A program made the translations under genes and the position numbers. From Trypanosoma brucei (taxonomy: Eukaryota), in NCBI GenBank assembly GCA_000002445.1, contig CM000207.1, positions 2,496,001-2,560,000 on the forward strand: a stretch of 64,000 bases of DNA, in the 5' to 3' direction. The notes beneath the pieces are model-generated. The model made no database searches and was not told where the DNA came from. It saw nothing but the letters and a program-made list of their open reading frames with translations. Below, one piece after another: positions 9,182 through 64,000 of the stretch (position 1 is the stretch's first letter; each line of letters starts with the position of its first letter).

Positions 9182-10620
9182 ATGATGATGCGCGCTACAA
9201 CGGTGGCTTCCTTACTAGTTTTAACTTTGCATGCAACAAGGCAAACTGCTGCAAACAAAAAAGCAATCAAAGTACAAGGATTTGTGAAGATGTGCACGCT
9301 TTCCAAAAATCTCAGACCGTGCAGGCGTACGCAACCAATAGACTAAAAAAATGGAAGATGATGATTGCAGATCTCAATGATCTCTGCGAGGACCTAACAA
9401 TTCTAAACAAAAAGTAGCGAAAAGTGCCTGAAGTCGCGACACCAGCTTTAATAAGGCTCTTAAGGCATGAGGCAAAAGCGTTAGAACACAAGTATCAGAC
9501 CCTGGAAGAAACAGCACCACTGGCGGGCTCACTTTCGGCACAGGCAGCAGGGGCAATGGACGAAGCAGCAGCTACTTTCTACGCAGCAACCAAAAACGGC
9601 GGCAGCGGCAAATACTACCTTGACCAGGACGGAACGGCCAACAAACTGGCCACAGCAACAGATCTAGCAGGATTCATGACCGAAGAAAGCGCCCCAGTAG
9701 CAGCAGCAGCAGACACAGCGGCAGTCGAAGTCAAGCCGTCCGATATAACAACCGCAGCGGGCACGGGAAGTGACTGCTTACTCACGCAAACGGACAGCAA
9801 TGGCGGTTATATCAACAGTGACGGCATGACCACGGGCATCAAATGGGCCGGCGGCCTTCTAACGTTCAGCACGAACCAATTAACAAACAATCCCTGGACT
9901 GATACGTCAGCGGCGTTAGCGACAGCACCGGTGCTAGAGCAGGCGGCACGACAGCTGGCAACCATATCAACAAAGTGGAGCCACACGAGCGCCGCAATAG
10001 ATAACCTCCTAAAACTCAAAAAGCCCACCGAACAAACTTTCACTGACATCGAGACCAACGAAAATGTCCTGAACCCTGGAGGCAACGACAAGGCACTAAA
10101 GGTAACAAAGGAACAACTAGAGCAGATCAGGCAAAAAGTAAATAATTACAGAGAACCACTCGCCCGTGACGGGAAACTAGACTCAAGCAGAAATAGTTTT
10201 CACCTCCAAGAACTGACGACAAACACTACAGTTACAATTGAAAAAGTCACCGCAGAATGCAACAAACACACTCAGGGAAAGCAAAGCTACGAGACAAAGG
10301 AAGAAGAATGTAATAAGGCAAAAGACAAAAAAAGTGAATGTGGAAAAAAAACTGGGTGCACTTACGACGGCAGTAAGCCAGCTGGCAAAAAATGAACATT
10401 GAGTGAAGAAACCAAACCAAGCATCGGCAAGAGAAACAGCAAACCAAGAAATAGAAGGAAATGATGAGAAAAAAGGGGAGAAATTTGCAGGGAAAGAACA
10501 AAAATACTGAAAAGATAGCTTCAAATGTAAAGGAAAAAGTGCAGGGATCTCGGTTTTCTCATCAATAAGAATTCTGCTCTGAGTATGGCTGCTGTTTTTG
10601 TGAGCTTTGTAGCATTTTAA
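9182..10620 (+). pseudogene. VSG: VSG pseudogene: signal peptide and N-terminal domain intact in places, frameshifted, degenerate C-terminus and GPI signal
   Basis: A true ATG at 9182 gives MMMRATTVASLLVLTLHATRQTAANKKAIKVQGF (signal peptide). The long ORF 9424-10395 is Ala/Thr-rich and ends in a Cys-rich C-terminal domain (CNKHTQGK...ECNKAKDKKSECGKKTGC). A decayed GPI tail ...GISVFSSIRILL follows, then a degenerate 16-mer near 10692. Confidence 0.7.
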
Positions 10621-34811: not shown

Positions 34812-35912
34812 ATGAAGTATTTAGGGAGTATTTATGCAACAGTAGTTTTTTTAGTTTTTATTGTTATGGGGATTAATATACTTTTGTCACTATACAGCGT
34901 TTTTGGTGAAGGAGATTCTATTTCGCTTGAAATTGTTGTGAATGAGTATATGAGGTTCATGTCAACAGATTTAAGGACGATTTGGCAAACTGAAGATTAT
35001 TTGGTCGTTGCTTGAATACCTTCAACAGATGATGATGAGAGATTTAGAAGGAGGAATCTACAGAGAGAAACATGTTGGAGTTACCCTAAAGTGGAAAGAC
35101 GAGCAAATAATTTTGCTGGGAAATTGCTTATAGTATATGCCCTTTCCCCTCATACAAAAAACAATTGCGAGCTCAGAGAAATTGTTGAAGGAGAGGCAGA
35201 GTTAAATCAGGATGTTATTATTTTACTTGTATGCAATGTAAATCCAGGAACAAATAAAAAATTTGGAGATGCAGGTAATTGGGGATGGGAAGCAGAACTC
35301 ATGATTAGTAGAAAAACATATTTGTGGTTCAAATTCGAAGTTGAGACATTAAAGCCAACTAATCCTTATAAAATGAAAGCAGATGATGATATATTTATGA
35401 GGGCGCCATTGTATCTAAAATATCTGGAGGTGCTTCCAAGGGAGAAATTGAATATGGGAAGAGCAATGGGTCATGTTGACGACAGCATCTGGAGGATGAG
35501 ATGGCACGCCGTTGGGTATGCAAACACACTTTCAAGAGATGTCGTGGAAGAAATAGTTGGCTATTCAGGCCTTTGTAAACTATTATTCGAAAGAATCAGC
35601 TTTAGAAACTTTGAAAAATACATAGATTATGGCGCGCTTAACGAGGATATTATGGTTGGAGAAGTTATAAGGAATAAGTTGAAAATTGAAGGATTACTGA
35701 CAGTGGATATGCAAGATTGTCATTATGCGATGAATGTACAAAGGCCACTCGACCCATTTGTAGAAGACAATCCTAACCTTATTGTTTTACACCACATTGC
35801 CAACGATGAATACAGATGGCTCATGTTACACTGTCAAGCCCTAGCGCCACATAACCAGCAGCCACCATCAATATTTCAAATTACAGCGTTTTGGCATGAA
35901 TTTACATGCTAG
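34812..35912 (+). pseudogene. Beta-1,3-glycosyltransferase-family (trypanosome GT67-like, UDP-Gal/UDP-GlcNAc-dependent) gene with a single in-frame TGA at 35013-35015
   Basis: ATG 34812 gives MKYLGSIYATVVFLVFIVMGINILLSLY, a type II signal-anchor. The same frame continues after the TGA through ...DDDERFRRRNLQRETCW (R-R-x-x-x-R-x-T-W-like beta3GT motif) into ORF 35091-35912, which carries the DxD signature KADDDIFMRAPLYLKYL. Confidence 0.6.
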
Positions 35913-61955: not shown

Positions 61956-63333
61956 CGGAATGGCTGGTCGTAAAAAAATTGAACTATTGAGACAATTGAA
62001 AAGGAAAAGTGTGAATGAGTGAGATAGTGGGTAAGAGAATGAGATGAAGAGTAAGGAGGAGATAAAATATACAAAGTTTCAGTCATAATTATGACTATGG
62101 GTTTCATTCACATCGAGAAAAAGGAGCCAATAACTGAGAAATAGTCCATTCCACAGATGAAATGGAACCGCTCTAACTAACAAAAAGGAACGGTGGATGT
62201 GGAGGCACCTAACTGTACCATTGTCAACAAGCTCCAAAGAACTCATTGAAGAATGAATTATTTTCACTTAAGGCACTATGACGTATACACAGCGATCTTA
62301 CACAAAAATTCAGTTCACAAACAACGTCTGATTTGTCTGAAGATGCGTTTCTTACAAGAATTTAACCAATCATAGTAAGAAATGAAAAAACAGTCAGTTG
62401 ATTTTTGGAGTGAAACCTATAACAACAATGAAAAACTCCACTAAAGTTAGAAATACTAACAGCAAGCGGAAGAACACCTTAACACAAGAAACAAAAAGCA
62501 TAAATAAGTATAAAATTGCATCGAAAACTAGTGCAGAAACAGTGAGTTTTTAGTGGTCCCTGCACGTACTCTAATTGGCCAATATATTATGTAGAAGCAA
62601 GAACCTAGCTCTTTTTCAAGTGTGAAGCTTTTAAAGATTTGGAAAATGAGTTTAAGTGTCACCTTTAGAAGAAAAGAAGCGAGAAGACTTACAAGTGTGC
62701 AATTGGATCTATTTATAAAGGTGAAAAGCAAAAAAGCCAATTTTTAACAACATTTCAAATATCTTAAGCTTAGTCCATTGTTAACATTAGGAAAAACTAT
62801 AGGAAATTTTTTACTCCAAAGGATGCTTGTTTAAATACAAAATTTAAGGTGAATTTTACCTGTTTTAATGACCATGGAATTCTGTGGTGAAACTAGGGTT
62901 TTAGAAAGTTGAAAATGTTTACAACACTGCTATTCAGAATGATGATCTATATATTTAATCAAGCAGACACATATCTCAGTTTACAGAGAACAAAATCGGA
63001 TATGCTGTTACTTGAAATTTTTTTAGAACTCACCAATTTTATGTAAGTCACTTTACAAAAGTAACATTCAATTGAATAATATATATTTTTAAAACAGTGA
63101 AGAAGTGAGGAATGATTTTTGATGCAGGTAGTGTTACCTTTATTATTATTATTTTGTGATGATTTGTATGAAGAAACGCTAATTATATATTCTAAAGATA
63201 ATCAGATACTGACCTGTAGCACAGACAGGAACTGGAGGAAAAAACTCCTTTCCGCATTGTTGTGGCTTTTTCATTAAAACGATGACGATAAAGAAGGAAC
63301 AAACCAACGAATGTAAGCCTTTTCTGCGTTATT

Positions 63334-63518
63334 TTGGGGGCATCCGCACTAATCACGGCAATTTTTGCATACGGGACGGTAACCAAAGGAAAAAACGCAG
63401 AGGACTTTGCGGCACTGTGTGGCTTAGTACAATTTGCTAAATCAAAAGTAACGGACGCTACGAAGCCTCAGGAAATAGAGAAAGTCATCAACACGTTGGC
63501 TGCTATAAATTTCGCATT
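63334..63518 (+). pseudogene. VSG: VSG N-terminal fragment (signal peptide and start of N-domain) truncated by ingi insertion
   Basis: ...ALITAIFAYGTVTKGKNAEDFAALCGLVQFAKSKVTDATKPQEIEKVINTLAAINFAF, then the ingi 5' sequence in the same reading frame (ORF 63334-63837). Confidence 0.6.
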
Positions 63519-64000
63519 CCCTAGCGATGCCGGCCACCTCAACGTGGTGCCAGGGTCCATTACCCCGTATCATCGGGGGAAGCCAAGAGCCAGCAGAGTT
63601 CCTTTCATGGGGAACACTGCTGTGCTCCGGCTACGGCATCATACAGCACAGGGATCAGCAGCGTCTTGCTGGGACACCGTTTTTCATTTGTCGGTCCCTG
63701 GGCACGTGGCTAGCGTGCCATCAGCAGTATCATCCGCACTAAGATGCTGCTGTCCGGTGATGTGGAAGAGAATCCCGGCCCGTCGTTGCGCGGGATGCAG
63801 TGGAACTGCGCCGGGCTATCTCAAGGAAAGAGATTAGCACTCCACAAAACCCTTGTTGATGAGCGGATCGCCTTTTGTCTGTTGAGCGAGACAAGGATGA
63901 CGCTTGGAGAGGCGGCTTTCTTTAGCGTTGCTGACTACCAACATCATGGAATAGCTCGTAACTGCAAAGGAGGTGGTGTATCAATACTAGTGAGGGAGGA
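63519..64000 (+). mobile_element. ingi: Second ingi copy (5' end, + strand) running off the end of the window
   Basis: From 63526 the sequence GATGCCGGCCACCTCAACGTGGTGCCAGGG... is the reverse complement of 48591-48620. From about 63742 it encodes MLLSGDVEENPGPSLRGMQWNCAGLSQGKRLALHKTLVDERIAFCLLSETRMTLGEAAFFSVADYQHHGIARNCKGGGVSILVRE. Confidence 0.9.

What the first reader, a model, noticed from the sequence alone, without database searches (positions are those of the whole stretch)
63334..63837. VSG signal-peptide/N-terminus fused in frame to the ingi 5' end (chimeric 167-aa ORF). Both ingi copies share the same 5' junction context
Copy 2 begins at exactly the same element nucleotide as copy 1 (GATGCCGGCC...). 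In both cases the adjacent flank reads CCCT[A/G]G[C/T]. Two explanations fit. These 7 nt could belong to the element itself. Alternatively they reflect the known sequence-specific target preference of the ingi/L1Tc endonuclease. Both junctions fall inside VSG coding sequence, which suggests VSG N-domains may present preferred target motifs. The two VSG pieces (N-terminus here, body at 48628) both flank ingi 5' ends, so they cannot be halves of one simple insertion.
Basis: partly seen in the sequence, partly recalled or inferred. Interest (0 to 1): 0.6.

Follow-up and report, generated by a model that had tools for sequence, protein, structure and literature searches.

The report
ingi retrotransposon ends beside VSG pseudogenes
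The shared 7 bases are the first 7 bases of the well-known trypanosome ingi retrotransposon, not a target-site motif, and the 167-codon "VSG-ingi fusion" is an accidental open frame across the junction of a broken VSG gene and the element's leader, so the finding is ordinary.

Summary
The window is a Trypanosoma brucei-type silent VSG array that carries two ingi non-LTR retrotransposons. Copy 1 is full length on the minus strand (43371-48626). Copy 2 is on the plus strand from 63519 to the window end.

The sequence facts hold. Both copies read GATGCCGGCC..., preceded by CCCTGGT (copy 1) or CCCTAGC (copy 2), and an open frame spans 63334-63837.

- **The 7 bases are element sequence.** Eight other ingi copies from T. 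b. equiperdum and T. b. gambiense have unrelated flanks, yet all carry CCCTGGC (7 of 8) or CCCTGGA at this position. L1Tc nt 1-11 is CCCTGGCTGAG. CCCTGGC also pairs with GCCAGGG at nt 31-37, the P1 helix of the published HDV-like ribozyme that cleaves 5' of nt +1.
A separate, weaker flank signature lies further upstream (-23..-13), as the literature describes.
- **The ORF is incidental.** It has no in-frame ATG in its VSG part (TTG start under the bacterial code). The VSG ATG is frameshifted. The ORF lies in neither ingi coding frame.
- **The two VSG pieces are unrelated.** One is B-type (profile 5-59) and the other A-type (profile 170-363).

Verdict: already known biology, low interest.

The parts
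63282..63518 (+). N-terminal fragment of a B-type VSG pseudogene. ATG at 63282; the signal peptide and first helix are read in another frame from about 63310. It stops at about residue 70 of a full VSG.
   Evidence: Pfam VSG_B PF13206 profile 5-59/352, 41.4 bits. 51% identity to residues 27-69 of the B-type VSG P0030. Frameshift relative to the ATG.
63334..63837 (+). The reported 167-codon stop-to-stop frame: VSG codons (to 63518) followed by 106 codons of the ingi leader in a non-coding frame.
   Evidence: the ORF listing gives a TTG start. Frame analysis. The same leader frame is also captured by an RHS-derived ORF and other spurious ORFs in the protein database (P0018-P0020).
63519..64000 (+). 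ingi copy 2, 5' part, cut by the window end. True first base is 63519 (CCCTAGC..., a G5A variant).
   Evidence: Alignment to 8 external ingi copies and to copy 1.
63519..63596 (+). Pr77 / 79-bp signature = HDV-like ribozyme region of copy 2. P1 is 63519-63525 with 63549-63555 (one A.C mismatch), P3 is 63534-63537 with 63544-63547, P4 is 63563-63567 with 63574-63578.
   Evidence: Complementarity counted on 10 copies. Published L1TcRz/Pr77 (PMC3185411; PMC4035085). No Rfam family matches.
63744..64000 (+). Start of the ingi main ORF of copy 2, with the 2A-like peptide MLLSGDVEENPGP and the beginning of the AP-endonuclease region.
   Evidence: Translation. Identical N-terminus in the copy 1 ORF and in annotated T. 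brucei endonuclease-reverse transcriptase proteins.
63494..63504 (+). Target-site-like motif CGTTGGCTGCT upstream of copy 2, 2 nt further from the element than in the other copies.
   Evidence: A PWM built from 8 external flanks scores it 11.0, higher than any of about 128,000 window positions. Nine registers were tried, so treat as suggestive.
43371..48626 (-). ingi copy 1, full length (5256 bp). 5' end at 48626 (CCCTGGT..., a C7T variant); A9 tail at 43371-43379.
   Evidence: No target-site duplication.
43821..48401 (-). ingi copy 1 ORF, 1526 aa: 2A peptide, AP endonuclease, reverse transcriptase, RNase H, C2H2 zinc finger.
   Evidence: Pfam RVT_1 148 bits, Exo_endo_phos_2 46.5 bits, RNase_H 35.9 bits, zf-C2H2_4 26 bits. 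Translation.
48549..48626 (-). Pr77 / ribozyme region of copy 1. P1 is 48620-48626 with 48590-48596 (7 pairs including one G.U). P4 has 3 of 5 pairs broken.
   Evidence: The MFE fold contains P1 and P3. Pair counts.
48639..48649 (-). Target-site-like motif TGTCGTTGTTT at -23..-13 upstream of copy 1.
   Evidence: PWM score including -4/-3 is in the top 1.4% of window positions; with -23..-13 alone, the top 5.9%.
48627..49671 (+). A-type VSG pseudogene body (N-domain from profile position ~170, then C-terminal domain and GPI signal). It has several frameshifts and stops, and is antisense to ingi copy 1.
   Evidence: Pfam PF00913 profile 170-363/367, 52.2 bits. The 94-aa single-frame piece at the junction gives 23.1 bits. 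PF10659 C-terminal domain. 3'-UTR 16-mer at 49726.

Best explanation
Two ingi (Tbingi) non-LTR retrotransposons sit in a silent subtelomeric VSG array of a T. brucei-group genome. Each has its 5' end against a truncated VSG pseudogene.

The shared CCCTGGY is nt 1-7 of the element itself. It is the first strand of helix P1 of the Pr77/HDV-like ribozyme and pairs with GCCAGGG at nt 31-37. By analogy with the published L1Tc ribozyme, this ribozyme cuts read-through transcripts immediately 5' of nt 1. Full-length copies therefore all start at the same base whatever the flank (inferred for ingi). Copy 1 (C7T) and copy 2 (G5A) carry single transitions, which is what made these bases look like flank.

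The 167-codon ORF is an accident. A frameshifted B-type VSG N-terminus happens to run into a stop-poor, GC-rich frame of the ingi leader, and that frame is not an ingi coding frame.

The two VSG fragments come from two independent events, in a B-type VSG (sense, ~residue 70) and an A-type VSG (antisense, ~profile 168). Copy 1 later lost its original 3' partner flank, through ingi-ingi recombination or a deletion (inferred from the absent TSD and the missing VSG 5' half).
For: - **Consensus at nt 1-7.** 8 of 8 external ingi copies from two other genomes have unrelated sequence up to position -1 and then CCCTGGC (7) or CCCTGGA (1). In the 10-copy alignment, nt 1-7 are as conserved as the rest of the leader.
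- **Literature.** L1Tc nt 1-11 = CCCTGGCTGAG (primer 5'R77, PMC1874656). Ribozyme cleavage and mRNA 5' ends map to +1 (PMC3185411). Pr77 is shared by ingi/RIME (PMC4035085).
- **P1 pairing.** 95.7% of cells are paired in P1, falling to 35-54% when partners are slid. The MFE fold of copy 1 contains P1.
- **Subfamily variant.** A database protein (P0018) reads ...NVLN-PSDAGH... It carries the same Gly-to-Ser change (consistent with G5A) and the same leader variant as copy 2, but behind a different flank. The variant therefore travels with the element.
- **Frames.**
- **VSG classes.**
- **Known analogue.** An RHS_N protein (P0019) runs into the ingi leader in the same frame, the known RHS-type chimera.
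- **Element identity.** Copy 1 has APE, RT, RNase H, zinc finger, 2A and an A-tail.
- **Rearrangement.** No TSD for copy 1.
Against: - No target-site duplication could be used to fix the boundary independently. Copy 1 and all 5 external full-length copies lack one.
- There is no covariation in P1, because the copies are too similar.
- Rfam has no model for this ribozyme, so the structure rests on complementarity and the literature.
- Ribozyme activity of ingi itself is cited in the literature only as 'manuscript in preparation'.
- The sample of external junctions is small (8).
Confidence: 0.93

Rival explanations
1. The 7 nt CCCTGGY are flanking target DNA. They reflect a strict sequence preference of the ingi endonuclease, and the element proper starts at GATGCC.
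For: The two window junctions share 5 of 7 bases. Retroposons of the ingi clade are known to have site preference (PMC3820030).
Against: - 8 of 8 external copies have CCCTGG at 100% while everything upstream is unrelated. That is far stricter than the degenerate flank pattern seen at -23..-13.
- The homologous L1Tc is numbered from this C, and both its mRNA 5' end and its ribozyme cut map there.
- The 7 nt pair with element nt 31-37.
- The published preference motifs lie upstream of a 12-bp TSD, not adjacent to the element.
Confidence: 0.02
2. The 167-aa ORF is a genuine expressed VSG-ingi fusion protein, in which a VSG signal peptide directs an ingi-derived polypeptide.
For: An uninterrupted 167-codon frame exists. 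Host-ORF/ingi-leader chimeras are annotated elsewhere (P0019, P0020).
Against: - There is no in-frame ATG before the ingi part, and the VSG ATG is frameshifted.
- The ingi part is read in neither ingi coding frame and matches no Pfam domain beyond VSG_B 5-60.
- The same frame is open in 4 of 10 ingi copies whatever the flank.
- The locus is a silent array VSG pseudogene.
- Database matches to the ingi-leader part are other read-through or spurious ORFs, each with a different N-terminus or none.
Confidence: 0.01
3. The VSG N-terminus at 63.3 kb and the VSG body at 48.6 kb are two parts of one VSG, split by ingi-mediated rearrangement (for example an inversion between the inverted copies).
For: Both abut ingi 5' ends, and the two ingi copies are inverted and 14.9 kb apart with 307 identical bases.
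Against: - The N-terminal piece is B-type (PF13206 5-59, with no A-type hit even at E<=10). The body is A-type (PF00913 170-363).
- The closest full-length relatives of the N-terminal piece are all VSG_B and do not align to the body (E=0.59).
- About 110 profile positions would be missing between the two pieces.
- Recombination within inverted elements cannot place one gene's two halves against two 5' ends (geometric argument).
Confidence: 0.02

Closest known systems
Tbingi / RIME non-LTR retrotransposons of Trypanosoma brucei (ingi4 subclade)
   Same: - 5.25-kb element with the 5' Pr77/79-bp signature starting CCCTGGC.
- 2A peptide, APE-RT-RNase H-zinc finger ORF, A-rich tail.
- 91-94% protein identity to annotated T. 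brucei copies.
- Location among subtelomeric VSGs.

   Different: Nothing essential. Copy 1 has C7T and a degraded P4. Copy 2 has G5A. Both carry a 1-nt leader insertion (also in L001) that uncouples the upstream ATG from the main ORF. Copy 1 has no 12-bp TSD.
L1Tc Pr77 promoter / L1TcRz HDV-like ribozyme (T. cruzi)
   Same: The first ~77 nt are homologous. The P1 strand CCCUGGC is at nt 1-7. Cleavage and the transcript 5' end map to +1, which explains the invariant 5' boundary.
   Different: A different species and element. Activity of the ingi version is only cited as unpublished. These two copies carry mutations in P1 or P4 and may be inactive.
RHS (retrotransposon hot spot) pseudogenes with in-frame RIME/ingi insertions
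   Same: A host ORF reads straight into the ingi/RIME leader. P0019 (RHS_N domain) continues ...FTSF-PGDAGHLNVVPGS..., the same leader frame as the window ORF.
   Different: Here the host ORF is a VSG N-terminus, not RHS. It lacks an in-frame start codon. There is no evidence of a recurrent insertion position in VSGs.

Membership tests
Tbingi non-LTR retrotransposon | 5' Pr77 / 79-bp signature beginning CCCTGGC | tested here: met
   Both copies align from nt 1 with 8 external copies. There are single transitions at nt 7 (copy 1) and nt 5 (copy 2).
Tbingi non-LTR retrotransposon | [quoted passage not shown] | tested here: met
   Copy 1: Pfam hits and DVEENPGP. Copy 2: only the first 85 codons lie in the window, and they are nearly identical.
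Tbingi non-LTR retrotransposon | A-rich 3' tail | tested here: met
   Copy 1 has A9 at 43371-43379. The 3' end of copy 2 lies outside the window.
Tbingi non-LTR retrotransposon | 12-bp target-site duplication | tested here: not met
   Copy 1: best match 6/12, no better than random. The same holds for 5 external full-length copies. The literature reports many TSD-less copies in the related L1Tc/NARTc (PMC5814959). This is a property of an undisturbed insertion rather than of the element. Copy 2 is not testable.
Tbingi non-LTR retrotransposon | Conserved flank pattern upstream of the TSD (endonuclease recognition) | tested here: inconclusive
   With a PWM from 8 flanks, 6 of 8 leave-one-out scores fall in the top 2.5%. 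Copy 1 falls in the top 1.4%. Copy 2 fits only with a 2-nt shift, though then very well. The published ingi4 consensus itself could not be retrieved.
HDV-like ribozyme (L1TcRz type) | Nested P1/P3/P4 helices with cleavage 5' of the first P1 nucleotide | tested here: inconclusive
   Helices are 86-100% paired across 10 copies but show no covariation. No Rfam model matches. P2, P1.1 and the catalytic C were not modelled. Activity is not testable here.
VSG type B (N-terminal piece, 63310-63518) | Match to the PF13206 VSG_B N-terminal domain | tested here: met
   41.4 bits against a cut-off of 25, profile 5-59. The nearest full-length relatives are all VSG_B.
VSG type A (body, 48627-49671) | Match to PF00913 Trypan_glycop plus the PF10659 C-terminal domain | tested here: met
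   52.2 bits, profile 170-363. PF10659 at 40.7 bits. Caveat: the PF00913 hit is not reported when the C-terminal part is attached.
Translatable fusion gene | In-frame ATG start, and continuity with a coding frame of the partner | tested here: not met
   There is no ATG in the VSG part. The ORF is frame 0, against ingi frames +1 and +2.

The most novel reading that the evidence does not exclude
The most novel reading still open is that VSG coding sequences are recurrent, motif-driven ingi targets. Three of the 10 junctions examined lie inside VSG N-domain codons, and both window junctions carry the upstream [T/C]GTxGGxTxxT-like signature. On this reading, ingi insertion would contribute systematically to VSG pseudogenisation and to generating truncated donors for mosaic VSG formation. 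The 2-nt offset at copy 2 would indicate flexible spacing (14 rather than 12 nt) between recognition and second-strand cleavage.
Probability: 0.05. Interest if true: 0.3.

Novelty: already known. Interest (0 to 1): 0.07.

Why it matters
It matters little beyond correct annotation.

- The true 5' ends of the two ingi copies are 48626 and 63519, not 48619 and 63526.
- The 167-aa ORF should not be annotated as a gene.
- The two VSG fragments are separate pseudogenes, one A-type and one B-type.

The case is a useful caution. A point-mutated terminal heptamer of a repeat can look like a conserved target site when only two copies are compared.

Tried and rejected
- **Rfam.** At gathering and at E<=10 it found nothing at the Pr77 region. 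There is no curated family for L1Tc/ingi ribozymes.
- **TSD-based boundary mapping.** It failed because copy 1 and all 5 external full-length copies lack TSDs.
- **The search for homologous proteins on the two VSG pieces.** It returned nothing. Classification rests instead on Pfam and on the HMMER representative search.
- **Local tblastn.** Searching the VSG pieces against the window and loci gave no informative relatives.
- **Provenance and extension beyond 64000.** Exact-protein look-ups of two intact window VSGs and of P0018 were not on record. The 3' flank of copy 2 therefore could not be examined.
- **Literature.** The primary ingi target-site papers (Bringaud 2004 MBE; Bringaud 2009 Eukaryot Cell) are not held. 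A full-text search for the ingi 5' sequence string found nothing. The statement that an 11-bp pattern precedes the 12-bp repeat comes from my memory of the 2004 abstract. It is only partly corroborated by PMC3820030.
- **Inversion between the two inverted ingi copies.** I considered this as the source of the arrangement and rejected it on geometry, and because all VSGs inside and outside the interval are on the + strand.

Full report
**What the window is.** The window carries VSG genes and pseudogenes on the + strand every 4-5 kb. Each is followed by the conserved 3'-UTR 16-mer, and the units are separated by 70-bp-repeat cores. This is a silent subtelomeric VSG array of a Trypanosoma brucei-group genome. 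Two copies of the ingi non-LTR retrotransposon are present.

Copy 1 is on the minus strand. It has an A9 tail at 43371-43379 and a 1526-aa ORF (48401..43821). [quoted passage not shown] Its N-terminus is 91-94% identical to annotated 'endonuclease-reverse transcriptase' proteins of T. b. equiperdum and T. b. gambiense. Copy 2 is on the plus strand and runs off the window end.

**Checking the observation.** The 30-mer GATGCCGGCCACCTCAACGTGGTGCCAGGG occurs exactly twice, with 0 expected by chance. The 7 nt before it are CCCTGGT (copy 1) and CCCTAGC (copy 2). A stop-to-stop frame at 63334..63837 of 167 codons exists. So the sequence facts are correct. Two descriptive claims are not: that the element 'begins at GATGCC', and that a VSG N-terminus is 'fused in frame' to ingi.

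**The 7 bases are the first 7 bases of ingi.** I fetched eight other ingi 5' ends through annotated ingi proteins. They come from two other genomes, GCA_003543875.1 and GCA_000210295.1, on seven different contigs. In all eight, the sequence upstream of position -1 is unrelated between loci. The next 7 nt are CCCTGGC (7 of 8) or CCCTGGA (1 of 8), followed by GATGCC.

In a 10-copy alignment, nt 1-4 and 6 are invariant. Position 5 varies only in window copy 2 (G to A). Position 7 varies only in window copy 1 (C to T) and in L003. This is the same level of scattered point mutation seen through the rest of the leader.

The literature agrees:
- The homologous T. cruzi element L1Tc is numbered from this C. 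Primer 5'R77 is described as 'L1Tc 1-11' = CCCTGGCTGAG (PMC1874656).
- L1Tc mRNA 5' ends, and the cut made by its HDV-like ribozyme, both map to +1 (PMC3185411).
- The 77-79-nt 'Pr77 hallmark' is stated to be shared by ingi and RIME (PMC4035085; PMC2323293).

The sequence also explains why these bases must belong to the element. CCCTGGC is the exact reverse complement of GCCAGGG at nt 31-37, the position of ribozyme helix P1. Across the 10 copies, P1 is 95.7% paired, P3 100% and P4 86%. These figures fall to 35-54% when partners are slid by 1-3 columns. For copy 1, the minimum-free-energy fold contains P1 and P3.

The copies are too similar to show covariation, and Rfam has no model for this ribozyme. 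The structural argument therefore rests on complementarity plus published work, not on an independent statistical test.

One further piece of evidence is a database protein, P0018. It reads ...GKNVLN-PSDAGHINVV..., with the same Gly-to-Ser change that G5A causes in copy 2. It also has the same downstream leader variant (...VPGHVASVPSAVSSALRCCCPVM), but behind a different flank. The 'A' variant therefore travels with an ingi subfamily. The true 5' ends are 48626 (copy 1) and 63519 (copy 2).

[quoted passage not shown] That motif is specific to the Tbingi/TbRIME subclade (PMC3820030). For L1Tc the motif lies upstream of the 12-nt duplicated stretch (PMC5814959). I could not retrieve the primary ingi papers.

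With the corrected boundary, the 10 flanks show enrichment at -23..-13, roughly [T/C]GTxGGxTTxT, and TA at -4/-3. I built a weight matrix from the 8 external flanks. In leave-one-out scoring, 6 of 8 flanks fall in the top 2.5% of all window positions.

- The copy 1 flank is in the top 1.4% when -4/-3 are included. With -23..-13 alone it is in the top 5.9%.
- The copy 2 flank does not fit in the standard register. Shifted by 2 nt, CGTTGGCTGCT (63494-63504) scores higher than any of about 128,000 window positions. Nine registers were tried and the matrix rests on 8 sequences, so this is suggestive only.

Both junctions therefore look like genuine primary insertion sites.

**The 167-codon ORF.** Codons 1-62 are the true reading frame of a VSG N-terminus (signal peptide, then ...NAEDFAALCGLVQFAK...). 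They match Pfam VSG_B positions 5-60. Several facts argue against a real gene:
- The 'start' is a TTG, permitted only by the bacterial table.
- No ATG is in frame before the ingi part.
- The VSG's own ATG (63282) is in a different frame, so the fragment is already a frameshifted pseudogene.
- The ingi part is read in frame 0. The ingi upstream ATG (63527, MPATSTW...) is in frame +1, and the 2A/main ORF ATG (63744) is in frame +2.
- The 106 'ingi' codons are therefore not ingi protein. They match no domain.

That leader frame is open for 105 codons in 4 of the 10 ingi copies (the window copies, L001 and L007). Any upstream frame that reads into it is simply extended. The HMMER search of 1.84 billion representative proteins makes the same point:
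- The ingi-leader half matches other read-through or spurious ORFs that each have a different N-terminus or none. One is an RHS_N-domain protein (P0019), the classical retrotransposon-hot-spot chimera.
- The VSG half separately matches ordinary full-length B-type VSGs.

**The two VSG pieces.** The N-terminal piece is B-type. It scores 41.4 bits against PF13206 (profile 5-59) and gives no A-type hit even at E<=10. It is 51% identical to residues 27-69 of the 512-aa B-type VSG P0030. Its three full-length relatives are all VSG_B.

The body at 48627-49671 is a multiply frameshifted A-type VSG:
- PF00913 profile 170-363 at 52.2 bits for the stitched N-domain part.
- 23.1 bits for the 94-aa single-frame stretch that abuts ingi.
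- A PF10659 C-terminal domain and a GPI signal.

The body does not align to P0030 (E = 0.59). The pieces therefore belong to different VSG classes, would be about 110 profile positions apart, and lie in opposite orientation relative to their ingi copies. They are two independent VSG pseudogenes.

Among the external junctions, one (L003) also lies inside a VSG_B N-domain, in antisense at profile ~106. One lies about 300 nt downstream of a VSG. One lies about 380 nt upstream of the start of an A-type VSG N-terminus on the opposite strand. Two lie in chromosome-core gene neighbourhoods. Three VSG-internal junctions sit at three different positions, classes and orientations. In addition, about 1.4% of all window positions score at least as well as the copy 1 site. 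Together these give no support to a VSG-specific target motif. Ingi lands in VSGs because arrays are made of VSGs.

**History of copy 1 (inferred).** Copy 1 has no TSD: the best match is 6/12, no better than random. Its 3' flank is non-coding DNA about 590 bp downstream of a 70-bp-repeat core at 42779. It is not the missing 5' half of the A-type VSG. The element therefore occupies the place of the VSG's upstream region plus about 168 profile positions.

The simplest explanations are recombination between two co-oriented ingi copies, which would delete the interval, or a deletion at insertion. I cannot tell these apart. The two window copies are identical for about 307 nt but differ at 8 of the first 85 nt, which suggests patchy conversion between copies.

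**Verdict.** It resolves into textbook features of Tbingi in a VSG array: the element's own Pr77/ribozyme 5' terminus with single point mutations, two unrelated truncated VSG pseudogenes, and an incidental open frame. It is already known biology and of low interest.

Noticed in passing
window 43371-48626 (-); loci L001, L002, L003, L004, L006: None of the six full-length ingi copies examined has a detectable 12-bp target-site duplication (best 5-8 of 12, all within random expectation). This suggests frequent flank exchange or deletion among subtelomeric copies.
   Followed up: partly
window 63494-63504 (+) relative to 63519: The upstream target-like motif of copy 2 sits 2 nt further from the element than in the other copies. 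This could reflect a 14-nt spacing, two untemplated bases (TT) at the 5' junction, or a later 2-nt insertion.
   Followed up: partly
window ~63708 (+) and ~48437 (-); L001 ~2675: Both window ingi copies and L001 share a 1-nt insertion variant (GTGGCTAGCG or GTGTCTAGCG, against consensus GTGCCAGCG). It puts the upstream ATG at element nt 9 (MPATSTW...) out of frame with the 2A/main ORF, and it marks a subfamily.
   Followed up: partly
window 63604-63905 vs 48233-48541: The two inverted ingi copies are identical over about 307 nt but differ at 8 of the first 85 nt, and again further in. This pattern is suggestive of gene conversion between copies.
   Followed up: no
window 48567-48582 (-) and 63523 (+): Copy 1 has 3 of 5 pairs broken in the putative ribozyme helix P4. 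Copy 2 has an A.C mismatch in P1. Both ribozymes may be impaired.
   Followed up: partly
L003 ~9560-9992 (T. b. gambiense FN554965.1): Another ingi 5' end abuts a B-type VSG N-domain (profile 108-246) in antisense orientation. This is a third VSG-internal junction, at yet another position.
   Followed up: partly
L002 and L004, 570 nt upstream of the ingi 5' ends: Reverse-frame translations of these flanks resemble ingi protein (SKTGLTLHQRKMHGMKVE; ALYAWNKANWRYLEKSV). Each ingi is therefore preceded by another ingi or DIRE in inverted orientation.
   Followed up: no
window 48629-49671 (+): Pfam reports the A-type PF00913 match for the N-domain part alone (52 bits) and for a 94-aa piece (23 bits). 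It does not report the match when the Lys/Glu-rich C-terminal part is attached to the same sequence. This is probably a HMMER bias-filter effect.
   Followed up: partly
window 35091-35912 (+): A 273-aa ORF between two VSG units is not VSG-like and has no Pfam match. It begins with GTG under the bacterial table. Its identity is unknown.
   Followed up: partly
window 42779 and 43371: A 70-bp-repeat core lies only about 590 bp from the 3' end of ingi copy 1. The element replaces the rest of the cassette upstream region and the first ~168 profile positions of the A-type VSG.
   Followed up: partly
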